From positions 2,319 through 66,318 of the forward strand of contig URIY01000002.1 in the NCBI GenBank assembly GCA_900547995.1: a DNA stretch of 64,000 bases, given 5' to 3'. Source of the DNA: an uncultured Mycoplasmatota bacterium (GTDB taxonomy: Bacteria; Bacillota_I; Bacilli_A; RF39; UBA660). Both the position numbers and the translations under genes were made by a program. The notes below the pieces were generated by a model. It made no database searches. It had not been told where the DNA came from and saw nothing but the letters and a program-made list of their open reading frames with translations. This document shows positions 20,883-35,584 of this stretch, piece by piece (position 1 is the first letter of the stretch; each line of letters starts with the position of its first letter).

Positions 20883-20989
20883 TGATAGAATTAATAGGTA
20901 TGTAGAGCCTCTCTCTACAACCACACAGAAAAGGTTAAAACATATGTTACCTTAATGGTGAGTCTTAGATTATAAAGGAGGAGTGAAAG

Positions 20990-26620: not shown

Positions 26621-27349
26621 ATGAAAATGAAAAATTTAAAAGTATTCGTATCTAGTGTAATGGCTGCTGTGACAATGGGAAATGGTATGGTAGTTGCTGC
26701 TAATGCTAAGAGCTCAAATAAAGAAGAAAGTTATGTTTATGTTTATAATGACAAGAAAGATTTGAATAAAGATTATAAAATTGATGAGCCAATTGAATTA
26801 ATTATGCCAATTAGTGCTAAAGTTTCTAAGGATGGAAGTCAATCTTATCAATATGGAACAATTATCGTTGAAAATGATAAGGCTAGTATCAATCCAACAG
26901 AAATTGTTAATGTAATGGAAGCAATGCAAACATTAAATAAGAAAAATGATGCAGATAAATTTGTATATGTTGATGGAAATGCAATCAAGAATGATGATTT
27001 CAAAACTAAAACATCAACTAAAAGATATACTGAAAAACAATTAACAACATATAGAGCAAAACAAAACTTAAAAATAGAAGAAGCTAAAAAGAAAATAGAT
27101 CATAGTAAATATGCTGAATTTATATTACCAGTTATGGGAAGTTATAAATATAAAAATGCAAATGGTAAAACTGCTATATATAGACAAGTAGAATATATTT
27201 ATTTCTATATGCCATATGACCAAATTACTAATAGTACAAACTTTAGTGAAATAGCAAAATCTGTATATAGTCGTTATCAATCAACATTTGATCATGTTGT
27301 AACATATGATGAAATTAAAGCTGAAAAAGCAAAAACAAAAACAAAATAA
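26621..27349 (+). CDS. secreted hypothetical protein
   Basis: 242 aa with a signal peptide (MKMKNLKVFVSSVMAAVTMGNGMVVAANA|KS) and a K/D-rich mature part. No family recognised. Confidence 0.55.
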   Translation: MKMKNLKVFVSSVMAAVTMGNGMVVAANAKSSNKEESYVYVYNDKKDLNKDYKIDEPIELIMPISAKVSKDGSQSYQYGTIIVENDKASINPTEIVNVMEAMQTLNKKNDADKFVYVDGNAIKNDDFKTKTSTKRYTEKQLTTYRAKQNLKIEEAKKKIDHSKYAEFILPVMGSYKYKNANGKTAIYRQVEYIYFYMPYDQITNSTNFSEIAKSVYSRYQSTFDHVVTYDEIKAEKAKTKTK

Positions 27350-27478
27350 TTATGAATATAAATAGGTGTTACTTTGAGTAACACCTTTAATTTTATATAA
27401 TAGGAAAGTAATATAAAAAATTCATAAAATAATTAACAAAAAGTAAAATGATATATTGAACTATAGGTGATGTAATTT

Positions 27479-28280
27479 ATGAAGATAATGAAGGCATATA
27501 AATTTAGACTATATCCTAATATAGAGCAAAAAAAATTAATAAACAAAATAATAGGATGTACAAGATTTATATATAATTATATGTTAGAAAAAAAGATAAA
27601 AAATAATAAACTATCAAGATTTGATTTAAACAATTTAATACCAAGTGTATGTGTGTGTGAAGAATATGAATTAACACCAAAAAAAAGAACAAACAGTAGT
27701 AGGAATAGATATAGGAGTAAAAAGTTTAGTAGTAACAGGTAATGGAGAAACTTTTGGAAACCCAAAATATAATTAAAAATATGAAAAGAGAATAAAAAGA
27801 TTACAAAAAAGTTTATCAAGAAAAATAAAGGGAAGTAATAATTATAAAAAGAATAAAATACTGCTGGCTAGATGTTATCAAAAATTAAGAAATGCAAGAA
27901 AAAAATTAGTAGAGAAAATAGTATCAAAAGTAACTGAATATAATGATATAATTGTATGTGAAAAATTAAAAGTAAAAGAAATGATTGAAATAAATAAATG
28001 TTTGAGAAAAAACATAGTCAATTCCACATTTGGATTAATAATTACAAAAATAAAAGATAAATGTAAATATTTAAATAAAGAATTTATACAAGTAGATACA
28101 TATTATCCAAGCAGTCAAATCTGCAGTAGATGTAATAATATAGACAAAGGAATGAAAATTTTAAGTAAAAGAGAATATAAATGTCATAAATGTGGAATAG
28201 AAATAGAAAGAGATTTAAATGCAAGTATAAATATTATGTATGAAGGATTAATAACATATTATAAAAAACAATATAGTTAA
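27479..28280 (+). pseudogene. tnpB: decayed IS605/IS1341-family tnpB (OrfB) with frameshifts and internal deletions
   Basis: The N-terminus MKIMKAYKFRLYPNIEQKKLINKIIGCTRFIYNYML is the conserved TnpB head. After a +1 frameshift near 27690 comes the RuvC-I motif VVGIDIGVKSLVVTGNGETF.NPK, then a stop. Then RuvC-II ...IVCEKLKVKEM, the zinc-finger CSRC...CHKC and RuvC-III DLNASINI. The total of about 800 bp is well short of the roughly 1.2 kb of an intact tnpB. Confidence 0.75.
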
Positions 28281-28289
28281 AATAAAATT

Positions 28290-28415
28290 TAATAAAATAT
28301 AAAAATATGAATAAAACAATGAGTACGGTAGTGACTATCGGATTTTATGCCTGCATGAGCAGGTAGGTAACGAAAGCTATGAAGCAGAAAACCTTAAGTG
28401 TGAACTTAAGGATTC
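28290..28415 (+). ncRNA. IS605-family right-end structured element / putative TnpB omegaRNA (reRNA) scaffold
   Basis: Locally GC-rich segment immediately 3' of tnpB with stable hairpins (CCTGCatgaGCAGG; CCTTAAGTgtgaACTTAAGG), in the place where omegaRNA is encoded. Confidence 0.5.
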
Positions 28416-28616
28416 AAAAATTTATTTTTGAATTTTGTTCTAGATTAAAGTATCATTTTCCAAATATAAATATAAATTATCCTATATATGATGGATATTC
28501 TTTTGATGGACTTAATCATGGCAATAATTTACTAATTAATATAAGCAATATGGATGATACAAGTAGTAATCCTTTTATGGATGAAATTTTAGATAATTTA
28601 CTAATTGATATAAAGA

Positions 28617-28640
28617 AAAAGACCATTTAGTTGGTCTTTA
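28617..28640. terminator. bidirectional terminator downstream of rnhC
   Basis: Hairpin AAGACCAtttagtTGGTCTTtaattttt at the rnhC stop. Confidence 0.6.
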
Positions 28641-29562
28641 ATTTTTCGGCATTTTTAAAGTTCATTTTAGCAAGTTCATATAATTTATTATACCCATATT
28701 TTTGAACAATCTTTTGTGCAACCTCATCGACATTTGTTCCTGCACCTTTTGGAAGAAACATATCTATACTTTGACCTAATTTGTCAAACTCTTTAATAAA
28801 AATGTATCTACTAATCATGGAAGCACAAGCAACACTAAGACATTTATCTTCAGCTTTAGTAGTAAATGTTATATTTCTGCATACTTTTGGTGTATTCTTC
28901 AAATAACTATAATAAACCATTTCTTTAGCAAACTGATCAACAACAACATAATCAGTATCTTTATATTTGGTTGTTAATTCATTAAGAACTTTATTATGTA
29001 AAATAGCCTTAATTTTATTCATATTTAAATCTTTAGAATAAGATTTATTATAATCACTATTGGATACAATTAAACTTTTATATGGGATTCTTTTAATTAT
29101 TTTAGGGACAACATCCATTATTTTTTCATCAGTAATTTTTTTAGAATCACGAACACCTAGTTCTTCAAGAAATGGGATATCATCTTTTGTTACATAACTA
29201 CTAGTAACAACAATAGGTCCAAAAAAATCTCCTGTGCCAACTTCATCAGATCCAATTGTTGTTGCATAGTATAACTTTTTATCAATAGGATTAACTGTCT
29301 TTTCTTTTGTTTCTTTTTTCTTTTTTTCTTCTAATTTTTTAGTTGGATTTAATCTTCTTTCTGTTGCTTTCCATATATTTGCATCTATATCAGCACTAAC
29401 TCCTTGAAATACCATAGATCCTGATTCATAAAGGGTAACAACAGTATCTTCTTCATCAGCTTGAAATATAGCATATGCTGGTGTTTTAGCTCTTCTTTTA
29501 TCTTTAAAATATTCAATGGCTTTTTCTTTAGTATTTTCACTTACTTTAAATGATATAGTCAT
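28627..29562 (-). CDS. rnhC: ribonuclease HIII
   Basis: 311 aa with the N-terminal TBP-like DUF3378 fold (MTISFKV...VVTLYESGSMVFQG) and an RNase HII/HIII catalytic core (GSDEVGTGDFFGPIVV, DSKK). Confidence 0.9.
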   Translation of the reverse strand: MTISFKVSENTKEKAIEYFKDKRRAKTPAYAIFQADEEDTVVTLYESGSMVFQGVSADIDANIWKATERRLNPTKKLEEKKKKETKEKTVNPIDKKLYYATTIGSDEVGTGDFFGPIVVTSSYVTKDDIPFLEELGVRDSKKITDEKIMDVVPKIIKRIPYKSLIVSNSDYNKSYSKDLNMNKIKAILHNKVLNELTTKYKDTDYVVVDQFAKEMVYYSYLKNTPKVCRNITFTTKAEDKCLSVACASMISRYIFIKEFDKLGQSIDMFLPKGAGTNVDEVAQKIVQKYGYNKLYELAKMNFKNAEKLKTN

Positions 29563-30672: not shown

Positions 30673-30691
30673 TAACCATTTTTTTAATTTC

Positions 30692-30725
30692 AATTGACAA
30701 TTAAAAAATTAAAATGTATTATTTT
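30692..30725 (+). promoter_or_regulatory. sigma-A-type promoter for the first sigma4-like gene, overlapping the trxA terminator
   Basis: TTGACA, 17 nt, TATTAT. A hairpin atggttgtaataaccattttttt at the trxA stop precedes it. Confidence 0.5.
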
Positions 30726-30746
30726 GTTATAGAAATGGGGCATTTT

Positions 30747-31904
30747 ATGAAAATATACTCACAAGAAGAGATTAGAAAACAAATTATATGTCTTTTAACA
30801 GGAATACCTTTTGGGAAAAATCAAAAATATATAGAAAATAAGCAAAATATAAATATTTTACTTGATGATTTTTTTAACATAAATAAAGAAACTATTAGTG
30901 TTTTGAGTCAAAAAGAAACTTATATTTTAAGAAAAAAATATGGTGTTTTAGATGATGGTAAAGTACAAACATTAGATAAAATAGGAAAAGAATTTAAGAT
31001 TACAAATGAAAGAATAAGACAAATACTTATGAATATTACTAAAAAATTAAGAAAAGAAATTGATAAACCAAATGATATATTAAATGATTATAAAGAAAGT
31101 AACTCTATTAGTAATTTGTTAGATTTAAAATTAATTTATATTTTTGATTATGATATTGTAAAAAAACTATATCAAGAGTTTAATGATGAAATGACTTTAA
31201 GGGAACTAGTTCATAAATCAAGCCTTCAAGTAAAAAATGTTAAAGAATTAGAACAAAACGAATTTGAACAGATAGAAATTAAATTAAGCAAGTTAAATTT
31301 ATCATTTAATGATTGTATTTCTATATGTAAAAATAGAATAAGTATGACCGATATAGCAAAAGATTTAACATATAAATTGGAAGCAGACGAATCATATTAT
31401 GTATATATTAATGATATTGTAAGAGAAATGTGTAACTTAAATTTAAGACAAATTTTTGGTTTTAATGAAGAGACAACAGGTATTCTTAGAAAAATATATG
31501 GTGTATTAGATCATGGTATTAAACCATCAATAGAAGATATTCATAAGTATATGAATACAAATAATAATACTTGGTGCAGCAATAAAATCATTAAGGCATT
31601 TGATGACTTAAATAATATTTTTAAGTGTTTTCTTTTAGGAGAAGCAATTAAAATGAGCAATGAAAAGATGCTACAAATGGATATTAAGTATTTTAACTTA
31701 GATAATGCAAGTTATATTAATTTAAAAAAAGGCGGTATTAATACTTTAGAAAAATTAATAGAATTAGTCTATAATGACAATTTAGATATTAAATATCCCT
31801 ATGATAGAGCGTTGATAGAAAGAATTGTTAAAAGAATAGTATATATTTATAAAATAAATGATAATAGTGAAAAGGAAAGAACATTAAAGAAATCATTTAA
31901 ATAA
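30747..31904 (+). CDS. uncharacterised protein with two sigma-70-region-4-like HTH modules alternating with helix-hairpin-helix (RpoA-CTD-like) modules
   Basis: ETYILRKKYGVLDDGKVQTLDKIGKEFKITNERIRQILMNITKKLRKEI resembles sigma70 region 4.2 (compare ..RERIRQIEAKALRKLR). A second, degenerate copy is TTGILRKIYGVLDHGIKPSIEDIH. HhH-like segments are ..IEIKLSKLNLSFNDCI.. and ..FNLDNASYINLKKGGINTLEKLIEL... There is no sigma region 2. The start is most likely the ATG at 30747 (the six-frame ORF begins at 30714). Confidence 0.6.
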   Translation: MKIYSQEEIRKQIICLLTGIPFGKNQKYIENKQNINILLDDFFNINKETISVLSQKETYILRKKYGVLDDGKVQTLDKIGKEFKITNERIRQILMNITKKLRKEIDKPNDILNDYKESNSISNLLDLKLIYIFDYDIVKKLYQEFNDEMTLRELVHKSSLQVKNVKELEQNEFEQIEIKLSKLNLSFNDCISICKNRISMTDIAKDLTYKLEADESYYVYINDIVREMCNLNLRQIFGFNEETTGILRKIYGVLDHGIKPSIEDIHKYMNTNNNTWCSNKIIKAFDDLNNIFKCFLLGEAIKMSNEKMLQMDIKYFNLDNASYINLKKGGINTLEKLIELVYNDNLDIKYPYDRALIERIVKRIVYIYKINDNSEKERTLKKSFK

Positions 31905-31988
31905 TACTTCTTTATAATGTAATCATTTTTTTCTTGACATTTGGTCAAATATGATGTAGTATAATTGCTACGAAAGAAGGGGTTTATT

Positions 31989-33389
31989 ATGAATAATAAT
32001 ATGAATGAAGAAATCAAAAAAAAATTAATAATTGATATCTGTTATTCTAATCATAATTCTAGTTGTTATATATCAAGTGAGCCAAGTGAATATAGTCATT
32101 ACAAATCATTTTTTGATAAAATACTTGATGATCTTTTTAATTTGGATAATAAAACTGTAGGTAATTTGACAGAAAATGAAACATTTTTCTTAAGAAAAAA
32201 ATATGGATTATTAGATGATGGAAAAACTTTGTCAGCAAAAGAAATCGCAAGTGAATTAAATGTAAGCTATTCGTATGTATCGCAGGCATTATTAAAAGGA
32301 TATCGTAAACTTAAGACAAGTATTTGGAAAGAGAGACAGTTAAGCACATTCAAAGATTATTTAGAAAAGAATCAAATAAGTGCATTGCTAGATGCTGATA
32401 TATCTGAATTGATTAGTGATAATATATATAAAAAATTAAGCGAAAAAACGGGGCATTGGTATTTTTGCAGTTTCAGGGATTTAGTGAATATTTCTAGTTA
32501 TGAATTGTTATCAATACCAAACTTTGGACTTGCTGGTGTTGAAAAACTTCGTGATTTATTAAGACAATATAATTTATCGTTTGCTAATGATATTGCAATT
32601 CCAGAAAATCATCGAATTACTAAGTATGATATCAGAAAAATTTTAATATATAAGTTTGAAGTAGATGAAAAATTTTATAATTGTATTAATCCACTGGTTG
32701 ATGAATTGTATGATTTAAGAGAAGAAAAAGTTTTACCATTAGGTACAATTGGAACTTTTTTAATAAGGAAAATATGTGGTATATTAGATAACGGAATTAG
32801 ACCTTCGTTAACTCAAGTTAAAGAAGATTTAGAGCATAGATATAAGGTAGAATATACGCATAAAAACTTTAATGAACTTATTGCATCATCTTTTTCATGG
32901 TTACACAAAAAATTTGAAGAATATGCTTATAATGAGATAATGAGGCTAAGCAAAGATGAAATATTACCAATAAAATTAAGATATTTTAAATTTAATAGAA
33001 TATTTAATGAATCATTACTTAAGAGACTACAAGCATTTCACGTTTATACATTTGGTGATCTTCTTGATTTTAAAAAAGATTCAAACATATATTATGAAGA
33101 AACTTTACAATATTATAGTAGTGACGAATTAGAACAATTTATTGTTTTTATGGTTGAAGAAAGAGGATTAACTAAGGAACAATTAGAAGAGAAAAGAAGA
33201 AAAGAAAGAGAAGAAAGATTAGAAAAAGAAGCTCTTATTGAAAAAAGAAAAAATGAATTATCAAAAGCACATGATGTATTAATTGAACAAAAAGAAAAAA
33301 TTAGAATAGAAATGCTTAGAAAAATGGATTACTATGATAATCAATTAAATAGTGTAAATGAAAAAATAAAAAAATTAGAAAATAAGTAA
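31989..33389 (+). CDS. paralogue of the upstream gene: sigma4-like HTH x2 plus HhH x2 plus a C-terminal coiled coil
   Basis: ETFFLRKKYGLLDDGKTLSAKEIASELNVSYSYVSQALLKGYRKLK is sigma region-4-like. Also present are LLSIPNFGLAGVEKLRDLLRQYNLSF (HhH, alpha-CTD-like), GTFLIRKICGILDNGIRPSLTQV (second sigma4-like), LQAFHVYTFGDLLDF, and a K/E-rich coiled coil at the C-terminus. It has its own TTGACA..TATAAT promoter and a GAAGGGG ribosome-binding site. The ATG is at 31989. Confidence 0.6.
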   Translation: MNNNMNEEIKKKLIIDICYSNHNSSCYISSEPSEYSHYKSFFDKILDDLFNLDNKTVGNLTENETFFLRKKYGLLDDGKTLSAKEIASELNVSYSYVSQALLKGYRKLKTSIWKERQLSTFKDYLEKNQISALLDADISELISDNIYKKLSEKTGHWYFCSFRDLVNISSYELLSIPNFGLAGVEKLRDLLRQYNLSFANDIAIPENHRITKYDIRKILIYKFEVDEKFYNCINPLVDELYDLREEKVLPLGTIGTFLIRKICGILDNGIRPSLTQVKEDLEHRYKVEYTHKNFNELIASSFSWLHKKFEEYAYNEIMRLSKDEILPIKLRYFKFNRIFNESLLKRLQAFHVYTFGDLLDFKKDSNIYYEETLQYYSSDELEQFIVFMVEERGLTKEQLEEKRRKEREERLEKEALIEKRKNELSKAHDVLIEQKEKIRIEMLRKMDYYDNQLNSVNEKIKKLENK

Positions 33390-33390
33390 A

Positions 33391-33417
33391 AACAACTCGA
33401 TAGTTGTTTTTTTGTAA
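33391..33417 (+). terminator. rho-independent terminator after the second sigma4-like gene
   Basis: aaaCAACTcgatAGTTGtttttttgt. Confidence 0.6.
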
Positions 33418-33457
33418 TATTATACTTTTTTTGATAATACTAAATATGGTGATATTT

Positions 33458-34870
33458 ATGGGAAAAAATGTACTATGGAATAGAGATTATAATATAAAAA
33501 ATTATGAAAATAATAACATGTCTAAAGATACAGATATTTTAATAATAGGTGGTGGAATAACTGGTCTTACAACATCTTATTTTTTAAAAGAAAGCAATTA
33601 TAAAATTGCTTTAATAGATAAGGATAAAATAGGATGTGGTATAACCTTTAAAACAATTGGTAAAATATCTTATCTACAAGGTGATATTTATAGTAAATTA
33701 AATAAACTTTTTAATGCAAAAATATCTAAATTATATTTTCATTCACAAATAGATGGTAGTAAAATAATCAAAGATATTATATCTACTAATAATATTGATT
33801 GTGATTTAGAAAAGGTTTTATCTATAATTTTTACTTTGGAAGATAAAAATATAAAAAAAATTAATGAAGAAAAAGGTATACTTAAAGATTTTGGTGTAAA
33901 AGTAAATGATGTTAAGGATAATAGGATAAAGGACGGTATAAGTGTAGATGATACGTATATATTTAATCCTATTAAGTACATAAATTCTTTAGTTAAAATA
34001 TTAGAAAAGAAAATAAATATTTACGAAAATGTACTTGCTAATGATATAAAAAAGGTACAAGACTATTATTTAGTTTCAACTAGTAGTGGTGTTATAAAAA
34101 CAAAAATAATAGTCGTTGCTTGTCATTATCCCTTTTTTATTATTCCAAGTTTTATACCTCTTAAAACATATGTAAAAAGAGAGTACGTTAATGCTTGCCA
34201 ATTAGAAAATAAACATTTTACGGCTATTAGTATTGATAACTCACTACATTCTATAAGGTTTTATAAAGATTATATAATATATGGTTCTAATAAACATAAA
34301 CTTACAAGTAAAATGGATTATAAAGAAAATTATGATGAAAGTAGAAAAGAATTTATCAAATATTTTCATAAAGAACCAGAATATACTTGGATGAATCAAG
34401 ATATTGTTAGTAATGATATGCTTCCCTTTATAGGAGAGATTGATTCTAATCTTTTTGTAGCAACCGCTTTTAATGGTTGGGGTATGACTTGTGGAACTAT
34501 ATCTGGACAAATTATATCGGATTTAATATTACATAAGAAAAACAAATATAAAGAACTTTTTAATCCTAAAAGAAATAACTTTAATTTAATTTTTTCATCT
34601 ACAATAGGTAGTTTTAGTTATTTAAAAGCATATGTAGTAAGTTTATTTAAGAAAAATAATCCAAAATATATAAAAATACAGGGTATTAATTATGGAGTAT
34701 ATAAAGATGATAATGGTCAAAACCATTATATTAAACTAATTTGTCCTCATATGAAATGTCATTTAGTATTTAATAGAGAAGCTAAAACATGGGATTGTCC
34801 TTGCCATGGCTCAAGATTTGATATAGATGGTAATTTAATTGAAGGACCAGCTAACAAAAATATTAATTAA
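33458..34870 (+). CDS. FAD-dependent oxidoreductase with a C-terminal Rieske [2Fe-2S] domain (YhfW-like)
   Basis: The dinucleotide-binding motif DILIIGGGITGLTTSYFL is at the N-terminus. The C-terminal Rieske motif is CPHMKCH...(17)...CPCHGSRFDIDGNLIEGPA. The start was moved to the ATG at 33458, which has a GGTGA ribosome-binding site. Confidence 0.75.
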   Translation: MGKNVLWNRDYNIKNYENNNMSKDTDILIIGGGITGLTTSYFLKESNYKIALIDKDKIGCGITFKTIGKISYLQGDIYSKLNKLFNAKISKLYFHSQIDGSKIIKDIISTNNIDCDLEKVLSIIFTLEDKNIKKINEEKGILKDFGVKVNDVKDNRIKDGISVDDTYIFNPIKYINSLVKILEKKINIYENVLANDIKKVQDYYLVSTSSGVIKTKIIVVACHYPFFIIPSFIPLKTYVKREYVNACQLENKHFTAISIDNSLHSIRFYKDYIIYGSNKHKLTSKMDYKENYDESRKEFIKYFHKEPEYTWMNQDIVSNDMLPFIGEIDSNLFVATAFNGWGMTCGTISGQIISDLILHKKNKYKELFNPKRNNFNLIFSSTIGSFSYLKAYVVSLFKKNNPKYIKIQGINYGVYKDDNGQNHYIKLICPHMKCHLVFNREAKTWDCPCHGSRFDIDGNLIEGPANKNIN

Positions 34871-34921
34871 TCGTATAAATTAATGTTTTTTTAGACATTA
34901 TAATATAGGAGGATAGATAAA

Positions 34922-35137
34922 ATGAATAGTGTACCAAATATTATAAGTGGTAAAGATTTAGATTATTTAAGTGATATGTTCAGTTGGAATTATGGAGCAT
35001 ATAAATGTACTAAAAATGCTTATGAAAGTGCTACCGACATGGAAATAAAAGAAATGCTTAATAATGCATCAAATTTATTTTATAATAATATGAATAAAGT
35101 TTTAGATATTTTAAAAAACGGAGGTATAAATGAATAA
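34922..35137 (+). CDS. small hypothetical protein, coupled to the downstream CotF-like gene
   Basis: 71 aa with a GGAGGA ribosome-binding site. Its stop overlaps the next start. Confidence 0.45.
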   Translation: MNSVPNIISGKDLDYLSDMFSWNYGAYKCTKNAYESATDMEIKEMLNNASNLFYNNMNKVLDILKNGGINE

Positions 35138-35447
35138 TAATGAAATTAAGAATATAAAAGTAGATGTACCTACAGGAATATCTTTAAATGACAAAGATTA
35201 TTTAAATTCTCTTCTTAGTTCACTAAAGGAAATGTCTAAAAATTATACATTAAGTTTAACAGAGGCTAGTAATGAAGTATTATATAACGAATATAAACTA
35301 ATGTTTAATGATTATATATCTATGCAAAGAGATGTTTATGAATTAATGTTTAGAAAAGGTTGGTATGTATTAGAAAAAAGTGATTCTAATAAAATAAATA
35401 ATAAGTATCAAACATTAAAACAAGAATTAGATGATTTAAATAATTAA
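35130..35447 (+). CDS. Coat F (CotF) domain protein
   Basis: DKDYLNSLLSSLKEMSKNYTLSLTEASNEVLYNEY...MQRDVYELMFRKGWY matches the spore-coat F-like 4-helix ferritin-like pattern (LND.L..EK....Y.....E..N..L........M..RGWY). Confidence 0.6.
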   Translation: MNNNEIKNIKVDVPTGISLNDKDYLNSLLSSLKEMSKNYTLSLTEASNEVLYNEYKLMFNDYISMQRDVYELMFRKGWYVLEKSDSNKINNKYQTLKQELDDLNN

Positions 35448-35452
35448 AAATA

Positions 35453-35478
35453 TGTAAACAATAATGTTTACTTTTTTT
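35453..35478 (+). terminator. rho-independent terminator
   Basis: GTAAACAataatGTTTACttttttt. Confidence 0.65.
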
Positions 35479-35584
35479 GATATATTAGTGACTAGATATT
35501 TAAAATTTATTTTGAATTTTGTTCTTAGACTTCTATTATTGAAATAATATTATAAATTTGTTAAAATACATTTGGTGATTAGTA

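What the first reader, a model, noticed from the sequence alone, without database searches (positions are those of the whole stretch)
27350..28640. Decayed IS605-family tnpB retaining an intact, GC-rich structured right end (omegaRNA-like)
The tnpB reading frame is broken: the N-terminal head is conserved, then a +1 frameshift precedes RuvC-I, there is a stop after RuvC-I, and about 130 aa of the helical/WED region and part of the lid are missing. Yet the roughly 120 nt immediately 3' (28290-28415) is conspicuously GC-rich for this genome and folds into perfect hairpins (CCTGCatgaGCAGG, CCTTAAGTgtgaACTTAAGG), as expected for an IS200/605 right-end/omegaRNA scaffold. No tnpA is present. This could be a domesticated omegaRNA-derived sRNA whose guide would be the about 16 nt starting near 28416, or a relic useful for dating IS decay. 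A strong hairpin at 27363-27385 (AGGTGTTACTttgAGTAACACCT) may be the left-end hairpin or simply the upstream gene's terminator.
Basis: partly seen in the sequence, partly recalled or inferred. Interest (0 to 1): 0.55.

Follow-up and report, generated by a model that had tools for sequence, protein, structure and literature searches.

The report
Decaying TnpB transposon with guide RNA
This is a recently broken copy of a small, multi-copy TnpB-only insertion sequence in an uncultured low-GC gut bacterium. Its guide-RNA module looks almost whole because the damage is recent, so it is an ordinary transposon relic and not a newly domesticated RNA gene.

Summary
Window 27396-28440 is a 1045-nt decayed copy of a 1411-nt tnpB-only IS200/IS605-type element.

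Compared with intact 379-aa alleles at the same locus in other strains, it carries four private lesions:
- a 28-nt deletion that removes the tnpB promoter;
- a 339-nt deletion between 11-nt direct repeats (113 codons);
- an extra A in an A-run, causing a frameshift;
- a CAA>TAA nonsense change.

The 3' region 28322-28440 is a real omegaRNA-type scaffold. A covariance model built from relatives scores it 97.5 bits, and 32 of 33 modelled pairs covary. The scaffold ends exactly at the transposon right end (…TTTTGTTC|). The guide would therefore start at 28441, not 28416.

The hairpin at 27364-27386 is the upstream gene's terminator, not the left end. The target motif is TTTA.

Nothing supports domestication. 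The scaffold carries two private substitutions in 119 nt, against eight in 805 nt of the dead ORF.

The element has identical intact siblings at four or more other sites, so use of the RNA in trans is possible but untested.

Verdict: ordinary relic, and a new member of a known kind.

The parts
27364..27386 (+). Rho-independent terminator hairpin of the upstream 242-aa gene. It lies outside the transposon.
   Evidence: The terminator scan finds a 10-bp stem plus a T-tract. The same hairpin is present in IS-free strain L085, followed directly by the next gene's RBS.
27392..27395 (+). TTTA, the transposon-adjacent motif (TAM) immediately 5' of the left end.
   Evidence: TTTA (rarely TTTT or TTTG) precedes the left end at 7 different left flanks. 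TTTA also precedes the target in the empty site of L085.
27396..28440 (+). Decayed tnpB-only IS200/IS605-type element. It is 1045 nt here and 1411 nt when intact.
   Evidence: Boundaries come from copies in unrelated flanks (L002, L083, L093, L096, L097, L100). Intact length was measured in L092 and L093.
27396..27478 (+). Left end and 5' leader. A 28-nt deletion near 27455 removed the tnpB promoter.
   Evidence: L001 has TTGACC-17-TATAAT (11 of 12, with TG) at 981-1009. This is absent from the window.
27479..28283 (+). tnpB pseudogene. The catalytic D/E/D codons are kept but the frame is broken.
   Evidence: Pfam domains are found in two frames. tblastn against P0001 gives 92% identity in two pieces. 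Catalytic residues D190, E274 and D358 were mapped by alignment to ISDra2 TnpB.
27643..27653 (+). Junction of the 339-nt deletion (P0001 residues 59-171). One copy of the 11-nt repeat AAGTGTATGTG remains.
   Evidence: In the intact element the repeat occurs at offsets 275 and 614, which are 339 nt apart.
27679..27686 (+). A8 run (A7 in intact copies), which causes the +1 frameshift.
27774..27776 (+). TAA nonsense codon (CAA in intact copies).
   Evidence: The change is derived in the window lineage.
28322..28440 (+). omegaRNA-type scaffold, which is also the right end. Helices: P1 28326-28340; P2 28350-28353 with 28385-28388; P3 28359-28377; P4 28392-28411; P5 28412-28433; tail UUUGUUC 28434-28440.
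   Evidence: Model R1 scores it 97.5 bits, E 1.6e-19. Covariation: 93.6% of cells paired versus 63.5% when shuffled, and 32 of 33 pairs have compensatory changes. Private substitutions lie at 28332 and 28350.
28441..28456 (+). The would-be 16-nt guide, TAGATTAAAGTATCAT. It is flanking DNA, not part of the transposon.
   Evidence: Flanks diverge immediately after ...TTTTGTTC in 6 contexts. The empty site in L085 reads TTTA|TAGACTACAATATCAT. Other matches in the window do not exceed chance.
28379..28630 (+). Chimeric 83-aa ORF. The ATG lies inside the scaffold, and the ORF runs into the last 62 codons of a 373-aa host gene that the element disrupted.
   Evidence: IS-free L085 and L086 carry an intact 373-aa ORF here. 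Its C-terminus matches the ORF.

Best explanation
Window 27396-28440 is a recently inactivated copy of a multi-copy, tnpB-only (IS1341-style) IS200/IS605-family element. The host is an uncultured low-GC gut Bacilli-type bacterium.

How intact copies are built and would work:
- A sigma-70 promoter in the left end drives a 379-aa TnpB (RuvC D190/E274/D358 plus a zinc-ribbon TNB domain).
- The 3' UTR and right end encode a 119-nt omegaRNA scaffold (P1-P5 plus a UUUGUUC tail).
- The transcript runs out of the element, so its last approximately 16 nt (the guide) are copied from the flanking DNA.
- By analogy with ISDra2 and Geobacillus TnpB, the RNP would cut the TTTA-flanked empty site that excision leaves behind and so restore the element by recombination.

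What happened to this copy:
- The nuclease is destroyed by four independent lesions: promoter deletion, a repeat-mediated 339-nt deletion of the REC/WED region, a homopolymer frameshift, and a nonsense codon.
- The scaffold is still nearly complete only because the decay is young. The whole region differs by about 1.5% from strains with an intact allele at the same site.
- The scaffold has itself begun to drift. It has two private substitutions, and one converts a covarying U-A pair of P2 into C.A and stabilises a competing local hairpin.

Shown: identity, boundaries, lesions, conserved RNA structure, TAM, multi-copy status, recency.
Inferred: transcription, RNP formation, homing function.
For: - Lesions and Pfam domains.
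- Intact 379-aa alleles lie at the identical locus, with the same left and right flanks, in L092, L094 and L099. The same protein is found at the pyrG, ZnuA, FtsK-side and YlmH sites.
- The exact junction-spanning 87-aa product recurs on 5 or more contigs. L090 and L091 are 100% identical to the window.
- The scaffold scores 97.5 bits, against 102.2 for the intact copy.
- Covariation score is 0.595, against 0.157 when shuffled and at most 0.104 for slid controls.
- The right-end and left-end boundaries and the TTTA motif are consistent across 7 flanks and one empty site.
- Window-derived substitutions number 8 in 805 nt of tnpB and 2 in 119 nt of the scaffold. The scaffolds of 9 further contigs of this element, those whose tnpB lies on the contig all intact, carry neither window substitution (7 are identical to each other; L094/L095 share two other changes).
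- The 28350 T>C change raises the cost of the consensus fold, relative to the MFE, from 1.7 to 7.9 kcal/mol.
- The promoter is lost.
- The 90%-identity cluster of this TnpB is full of truncated alleles, for example a 208-aa form on 67 contigs.
- Homology to ISDra2 TnpB has E 1e-50. Mechanism literature.
Against: - There are no expression data, so an RNA made from read-through or a weak internal promoter cannot be excluded.
- Substitution counts are tiny (2 versus 8), so relaxed constraint on the scaffold is suggested, not proven.
- Only 64 kb of the genome is visible, so whether this strain still has an intact TnpB is unknown.
- The covariation alignment was fitted to the model's structure, which inflates pair counts somewhat.
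- The thermodynamic comparison ignores protein binding and non-canonical pairs.
Confidence: 0.85

Rival explanations
1. The orphan omegaRNA still works in trans. It would be transcribed (by read-through or a weak internal promoter), loaded by TnpB made from intact sibling copies with an identical scaffold, and would guide cleavage of this copy's empty site. The dead element would then persist as a guide-only hitchhiker, on its way to becoming a PATE-like element.
For: - Identical intact TnpB proteins and scaffolds exist at 4 or more other sites in the same species-level population.
- The window scaffold is full-length and still scores 97.5 bits.
- Meers et al. note that PATEs often encode omegaRNAs that must be used in trans.
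Against: - The element's own promoter is deleted and a terminator lies just upstream.
- A private substitution breaks a covarying P2 pair and favours a misfold.
- No tnpA is seen in the window, and only one was found among the loci tested. Excision, which homing would counteract, may therefore be rare.
- The rest of this strain's genome is not visible.
Confidence: 0.11
2. The right-end RNA has been domesticated as a regulatory sRNA that acts independently of TnpB, or with a nuclease-dead derivative as in TldR systems.
For: The only support is that the scaffold is structurally near-complete while the ORF is broken.
Against: - Intact and broken alleles coexist at the same locus among strains differing by 1-2%, so there has been no long-term retention.
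- The scaffold evolves at least as fast as the pseudogene.
- The guide has no match in the window beyond chance.
- The ORF is shattered, not a conserved catalytically dead protein, so it lacks the TldR hallmark.
- The promoter is lost.
Confidence: 0.02
3. The broken frame is an assembly or sequencing artefact, and the gene is really intact.
For: One of the four lesions is a homopolymer length change, which is an error-prone context. Intact alleles do exist at this locus in other samples.
Against: - There are four independent lesions, including 339-nt and 28-nt deletions and a point nonsense change.
- The exact junction-spanning product was called on 5 or more contigs from separate runs, and two loci are 100% identical to the window over 6.3 and 3.5 kb.
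Confidence: 0.02

Closest known systems
ISDra2 TnpB-omegaRNA (Deinococcus radiodurans; PDB 8BF8/8EXA/8H1J)
   Same: - The protein is homologous over its full length (E 1e-50), with the D/E/D RuvC triad and a TNB zinc ribbon.
- The RNA scaffold is of similar size (119 nt versus 116 nt), lies at the 3' end, runs to the right end, and takes its guide from flanking DNA.
   Different: - The scaffold lies wholly downstream of the stop codon, after a 38-nt AT-rich spacer, and does not overlap the ORF.
- The TAM is TTTA, not TTGAT.
- No tnpA accompanies the element.
- The pseudoknot seen in ISDra2 could not be demonstrated here.
- The window copy is a pseudogene.
tnpB-only (IS1341-group) IS200/IS605 elements, e.g. 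the non-autonomous Geobacillus stearothermophilus elements of Meers et al.
   Same: - It has a left end and right end with tnpB alone.
- It is multi-copy.
- It inserts 3' of a short motif with no duplication.
- The omegaRNA has a structural covariation model.
   Different: - It belongs to a different clade (uncultured gut Bacilli/'Tenericutes' MAGs, 25% GC).
- It targets terminator T-tracts ending in TTTA.
- This copy is decayed.
PATEs (palindrome-associated transposable elements that carry omegaRNAs but no gene)
   Same: A transposon end with an omegaRNA and no working nuclease would need TnpB in trans. Gene-less scaffold relics do occur in relatives, for example L022 2283-2376.
   Different: The window element still carries about 800 nt of recognisable tnpB. 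It is a recent pseudogene, not a streamlined, amplified miniature element.
TldR (TnpB-like nuclease-dead repressors)
   Same: Both derive from TnpB plus a guide RNA whose nuclease function has been lost (PMC10705468).
   Different: TldRs are intact, conserved ORFs with mutated active sites, and their guides target host promoters. Here the ORF is fragmented, the catalytic codons are unchanged, and no target was found.
Rfam TnpB-associated RNA models (RF03065 and RF02998, as cited by Meers et al.)
   Same: They represent the same class of RNA.
   Different: No Rfam 15 family matches 27300-28700, even at E up to 10. This clade's scaffold is not covered by those models.

Membership tests
IS200/IS605-family TnpB (OrfB) gene | HTH_OrfB_IS605, OrfB_IS605 (RuvC) and zinc-ribbon TNB domains, with a D/E/D catalytic triad | tested here: met
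   All three Pfam domains are above their cut-offs. D190, E274 and D358 are invariant in the family alignment and align to ISDra2 D191, E278 and D361. The codons are present in the window.
IS200/IS605-family TnpB (OrfB) gene | An uninterrupted reading frame, meaning a functional gene | tested here: not met
   There is a 339-nt deletion, a +1 frameshift, a nonsense codon and a promoter deletion. The gene is a pseudogene.
IS200/IS605-type transposon | Defined left and right ends without inverted repeats or a target duplication, inserted 3' of a short conserved motif | tested here: met
   The same ends occur in 7 unrelated flanks. TTTA lies 5' of the left end. The empty site in L085 reads TTTA|target with no duplication.
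IS200/IS605-type transposon | Subterminal hairpins at both ends for TnpA | tested here: inconclusive
   The right end has the covarying AT-rich hairpin P5, 7 nt from the tip. The left end has only a weak imperfect palindrome (TTAAC-N5-GTAAA, about 27427-27441), judged by eye and not tested.
IS200/IS605-type transposon | A Y1 transposase TnpA, which would make the element autonomous | tested here: not met
   tblastn with a recalled IS608 TnpA finds nothing in the window and only one hit (L053) among the loci held at that point, L001-L089. The element is non-autonomous.
TnpB-associated omegaRNA | A conserved structured RNA at the 3' end of tnpB, supported by compensatory changes | tested here: met
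   Model R1 gives 84 hits next to tnpB genes. 93.6% of cells are paired and 32 of 33 pairs show double changes, exceeding the shuffled and slid controls. The window hit scores 97.5 bits.
TnpB-associated omegaRNA | The scaffold ends at the right-end boundary, so the guide is flanking sequence | tested here: met
   All copies end in ...TTTTGTTC, and the sequence is unrelated from the next base onward.
TnpB-associated omegaRNA | A pseudoknot between the 3' tail and the 5' region, as in ISDra2 and Cas12 guide RNAs | tested here: inconclusive
   Candidate pairings of the tail (GUU/UUC) with the conserved GAC or GAA were considered. The tail is nearly invariant, so there is no covariation to test.
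TnpB-associated omegaRNA | Transcribed, processed and bound by TnpB | not testable with these tools
   No transcriptome or biochemistry is available. The promoter deletion argues against normal expression in this copy.
Domesticated TnpB systems (TldR-like) or a domesticated sRNA | Long-term conservation at a fixed host locus, with an intact (dead) protein or a conserved guide-target pair | tested here: not met
   Intact, broken and empty alleles are polymorphic at this locus among near-identical strains. No guide match exceeds chance.

The most novel reading that the evidence does not exclude
The dead copy is not inert. Its orphan omegaRNA would be expressed and loaded in trans by TnpB from intact sibling copies, which carry an identical scaffold. 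The relic would then be a guide-only hitchhiker that is actively kept at its site. That would be a natural intermediate between a tnpB element and a gene-less PATE, and a case where one nuclease serves many guides much as a CRISPR array does.
Probability: 0.1. Interest if true: 0.4.

Novelty: new member of a known kind. Interest (0 to 1): 0.17.

Why it matters
For the finding itself, very little: it is a young pseudogene of a common transposon, and the 'intact RNA next to a broken gene' contrast is explained by timing.

The useful by-products are these:
1. A covariation-supported omegaRNA model, precise ends and a TTTA TAM for a compact (379-aa) TnpB clade of uncultured low-GC gut Bacilli that Rfam does not cover.
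2. A worked example of how such elements die: promoter loss, repeat-mediated deletion, homopolymer slippage and a nonsense change within about 1.5% divergence, with the RNA module beginning to misfold. It includes polymorphic empty, intact and dead alleles at one locus.
3. Evidence that the element destroyed a 373-aa host gene and is associated with a 941-nt loss.

Tried and rejected
- Rfam at gathering threshold and at E up to 10 gave no relevant hit. This is uninformative, because Rfam's TnpB RNA models cover few clades.
- A phage BLAST found only distant tnpB genes.
- A plain MAFFT alignment of 63 scaffolds let RNAalifold find only P1. I replaced it with a homogeneous 19-sequence seed, a hand-drawn structure and a covariance model.
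- An apparent 200-nt deletion of the scaffold in sister locus L087 looked like strong evidence for neutral decay. It is a run of N, a scaffolding gap, so I discarded it.
- I first read the different left flank of L001 (pyrG) as an IS-mediated rearrangement. The identical IS occurs at several sites, and short-read contigs mix left and right flanks (L095 to L098). L001 may therefore be a chimeric assembly, and I make no claim on it.
- My first left-end boundary (27391, taken from BLAST) was corrected to 27396 after reading the T-tract.
- A pseudoknot search by eye was inconclusive.
- The idea that the 99-aa C-terminal ORF (27981-28280) is a functional mini-protein was dropped. It is an ordinary fragment of the frame and has no promoter.
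- The guide has no extra targets in the window.

Full report
**1. What is in the sequence**

The window is very AT-rich (25.5% GC). Between a 242-aa gene that ends at 27349 and a convergent RNase HIII gene (28627-29562, minus strand) lies a tnpB-like region read in two frames.
- Frame 1 (27479-27742) gives the conserved N-terminal head (Pfam HTH_OrfB_IS605, E 1.4e-16).
- Frame 2 gives GIDIGV (RuvC-I), an in-frame TAA, then the rest of RuvC and the zinc-ribbon TNB domain (OrfB_IS605 E 3.5e-20; Cas12f1-like_TNB E 1.5e-18).
- The stretch 28310-28415 is 38.7% GC, against 20.7% for the gene.
- 28240-28440 folds better than all 200 shuffles (z = -3.9).

**2. Intact relatives and the exact lesions**

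A protein search returned a 379-aa TnpB (P0001) that is 94% identical, plus thousands of relatives. Its contig L001, and later L092, L094 and L099, carry an intact gene at the same locus. L092, L094 and L099 share both of the window's flanks. L001 shares only the right flank at about 98.4% identity, and its left flank is pyrG (section 8).

Base-by-base comparison shows four lesions in the window:
- A 28-nt deletion near 27455 removes a TTGACC-17-TATAAT promoter with a TG extension (11 of 12 matches in L001). Similar promoters sit at this place across the family.
- A 339-nt deletion at 27643 lies between two copies of AAGTGTATGTG and removes P0001 residues 59-171.
- An A8 run at 27679-27686 replaces A7, giving the frameshift.
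- TAA replaces CAA at 27774.

P0001 aligns to ISDra2 TnpB over its full length (E 1e-50). D190, E274 and D358 correspond to the catalytic D191, E278 and D361. Using the published ISDra2 domain limits, the deleted residues correspond to the second half of REC and most of the WED barrel. There is no additional 'lid' deletion, because residues 166-379 align without gaps.

The broken allele is not an assembly error. The exact 87-aa product that spans the deletion junction was called on at least five contigs from separate runs, and L090 and L091 are 100% identical to the window over 6264 and 3453 nt.

**3. Ends of the element and the target motif**

Copies of the same element (TnpB 79-100% identical) occur in unrelated flanks: L002, L083, L084, L093 (pyrG / LRR protein), L096 (FtsK side), L097 (ZnuA) and L100 (YlmH side).
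- In every case similarity starts at TATAATAGGAAAGT and ends at ...GAATTTTGTTC.
- In the window this gives 27396-28440, or 1045 nt. The intact element is 1411 nt.
- The four bases before the left end are TTTA at all seven distinct left flanks, with TTTT or TTTG in single variants.
- Strains with 99%-identical RNase HIII but no element (L085, L086) show the empty target ...GTCTTTTTA|TAGACTACAATATCAT inside a 373-aa ORF.

TTTA is thus the transposon-adjacent motif, and insertion causes no duplication.

It is present unchanged in L085, where it is followed by the next gene's ribosome-binding site. It is the 242-aa gene's terminator. Several insertion sites are terminator T-tracts that end in TTTA.

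**4. The 3' module is an omegaRNA-type scaffold**

A scan of one genome per species returned 80 loci with relatives (40-69% identical). They come from uncultured gut Bacilli, 'Tenericutes' and Erysipelotrichaceae MAGs.
- The sequence just after the stop codon is conserved at the nucleotide level even when the proteins are only 40-50% identical.
- It always ends in (U)UUGUUC, and unrelated sequence follows.

I aligned 19 homogeneous sequences and drew five helices:
- P1, a hairpin;
- P2, a long-range 4-bp helix that encloses P3;
- P3, an inner hairpin;
- P4, a hairpin with GNRA-type loops;
- P5, an AT-rich hairpin, followed by the tail.

I checked this structure per sequence and built covariance model R1 from it.
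- In the window R1 finds one strong hit, 28322-28440, at 97.5 bits and E 1.6e-19.
- Across the loci then held (L001-L082) it finds 84 hits, almost all directly 3' of tnpB.
- On that alignment 93.6% of cells are standard pairs, against 63.5% after shuffling.
- 32 of 33 pairs show changes on both sides.
- The covariation score is 0.595, against 0.157 when shuffled (0 of 500 shuffles reach it) and at most 0.104 for slid partners.

The alignment was fitted to the model, which favours the structure. Even so, the margin is large and the compensatory changes are visible in the raw sequences.

Size, position and the guide-from-flank arrangement match the ISDra2 omegaRNA, which has a 116-nt scaffold plus a 16-nt guide. 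The ISDra2 pseudoknot could not be tested, because the tail hardly varies.

The P5 hairpin and the tail lie in between.

**5. Is the RNA 'retained'?**

No evidence says so.
- Polarising window-versus-L001 differences with L002 gives eight window-derived substitutions in 805 nt of dead tnpB and two in the 119-nt scaffold.
- The scaffolds of nine further contigs of this element, none with a broken tnpB (L088 holds only the gene's 3' end), carry neither change. Seven of them are identical to each other, and L094/L095 share two other changes.
- The substitution at 28332 lies in the P1 loop.
- The substitution at 28350 (T>C) turns the covarying U-A pair of P2 (UA in 51 sequences, CG in 28) into C.A. 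At the same time it makes the local hairpin CCTGC-ATGA-GCAGG perfect.
- In a nearest-neighbour model, the gap between the MFE and the family-consensus fold grows from 1.7 to 7.9 kcal/mol.
- The model score falls from 102.2 to 97.5 bits.

The second (CCTTAAGT-GTGA-ACTTAAGG) is the conserved P4.

The flanks diverge from L001 as much as the element does (about 1.5%), so the insertion is older than the strain split and the lesions are younger. Sister contig L087 shares the window's left flank and several substitutions. It lacks the window's four lesions but has two other 1-nt frameshifts. The 90%-identity cluster of this TnpB contains many truncated forms, for example 208 aa on 67 contigs and 353 aa on 28. 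Inactivation is therefore frequent in this population.

**6. Expression**

In ISDra2 the omegaRNA is processed from the tnpB transcript (PMC10278001). Here the promoter is gone and a terminator sits 10 nt upstream of the element. The remaining promoter-like matches are no more frequent than in shuffled sequence: 21 found against 15.6 +/- 4.3 expected. Normal expression is therefore doubtful. This is an inference.

**7. Could it act in trans?**

The identical TnpB protein (P0243) is encoded in at least four flank contexts, and P0244 at a fifth site that is stable across many samples. All have the same scaffold. A genome of this species probably holds several copies, so an intact TnpB could in principle load this copy's RNA. 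Meers et al. argue the same for PATEs.

Against this stand the lost promoter, the P2 defect and the scarcity of tnpA. There is none in the window and only one among the loci tested. The rest of this strain's genome is not visible. I give this reading about 0.1.

**8. Surroundings**

The 83-aa ORF (28379-28630) starts at an ATG inside the scaffold, within the conserved UGAAGCAG motif. It continues into the last 62 codons of the 373-aa gene that is intact in L085.

Relative to L085 the window lacks 941 nt: the RBS and the first 926 nt of that gene. The element's left flank is the TTTA at the upstream terminator, and its right flank is the TTTA-adjacent site inside the gene. The simplest explanation is two insertions followed by recombination between the copies, but this is an inference.

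The mixed left and right flank combinations seen in short-read contigs (L001, L095 to L098) may be assembly chimeras, so I draw nothing from them.

**9. Verdict**

This is a young pseudogene copy of a multi-copy, non-autonomous TnpB/omegaRNA element. The omegaRNA identification is right. The domestication idea is unsupported, and the guide position and 'left-end hairpin' are wrong. It is a new member of a known kind, and its interest is low.

Noticed in passing
window 28379-28630, compared with L085 (reverse complement) 2883-4004: The called 83-aa 'gene' is a chimera. Its ATG lies inside the transposon's RNA scaffold, and it runs into the last 62 codons of a 373-aa host ORF (no Pfam hit) that is intact in IS-free strains. 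The window also lacks 941 nt (the RBS plus the first 926 nt of that ORF). This suggests an IS-associated deletion, for example two insertions at TTTA sites followed by recombination.
   Followed up: partly
window 30686-35530, with a right-end-like tip at 35502-35525: A 4.85-kb segment is absent from strains L085 and L086. It encodes two Sigma70_r4-like proteins of 396 and 474 aa, a 488-aa protein and two small proteins. Its right edge carries a 24-of-25 match to the transposon's terminal hairpin plus UUUUGUUC tail (BLAST E 4e-4; model R1 10 bits, E 2.3). This may be a solo right-end relic at the junction. However, the junction is not flush (8 extra nt), and the L085 sequence there is loosely similar.
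   Followed up: partly
L022 2283-2376 (and L026 451-567): A gene-less partial scaffold (P1-P4, 88.5% identical to the scaffold of the intact copy 1.9 kb away) sits between the rpsU terminator and the next gene's RBS. No tnpB, left end or P5/tail is present. This is an older relic of the same kind.
   Followed up: partly
L048 1455-1818: A C-terminal tnpB fragment (aa 321-374) plus a second full scaffold lies immediately after the right end of an intact copy. This is a tandem or nested arrangement in which one copy is truncated.
   Followed up: no
L001, L093 and L095-L098 (left and right flanks): The same left flank (the ZnuA terminator) is joined through the element to three different right flanks. 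L001 joins the pyrG left flank to the rnhC-side right flank. Either short-read contigs are chimeric across this 1.4-kb repeat, or the copies recombine in vivo.
   Followed up: partly
alignments A5/A6: window 28362-28374, compared with P4 loops of L020, L028 and others: The motif AGGUAACGA (a G-C-closed GUAA tetraloop flanked by possible sheared G.A pairs) sits in P3 in the window's subfamily. In many relatives it sits in P4, and those relatives' P3 then has a plain hairpin. It looks as if a module has swapped between helices.
   Followed up: no
L051, L054, L058, L061 and others, 5-30 nt after the tnpB stop codon: Many relatives carry a box AAATTTTGAC/AAATTTTGGT just upstream of the scaffold. 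It repeats the 3' arm of their own P5 hairpin and could pair with the P5 5' arm as an alternative structure. In the window the MFE fold likewise pairs 28309-28315 with the P5 region.
   Followed up: no
L053 1421-1786: This is the only Y1 (IS200-type) TnpA-like ORF found among the loci tested (32% identical to a recalled IS608 TnpA, E 3e-20). It lies 1.2 kb upstream of that genome's tnpB and is a candidate mobiliser for the family.
   Followed up: no
window 20909-20975 (+): Ribosomal protein L21 leader (RF00559, 50.5 bits). This is the only Rfam family in the window at gathering threshold, and it is consistent with a Firmicutes/Bacilli-type host.
   Followed up: no
window 28428-28456 (+): An outward-facing promoter-like site, TTGAAT-17-TATCAT (9 of 12), spans the right-end tip and the flank. 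It is also present in L001. It is weak, and such matches are no more frequent here than in shuffled sequence.
   Followed up: no
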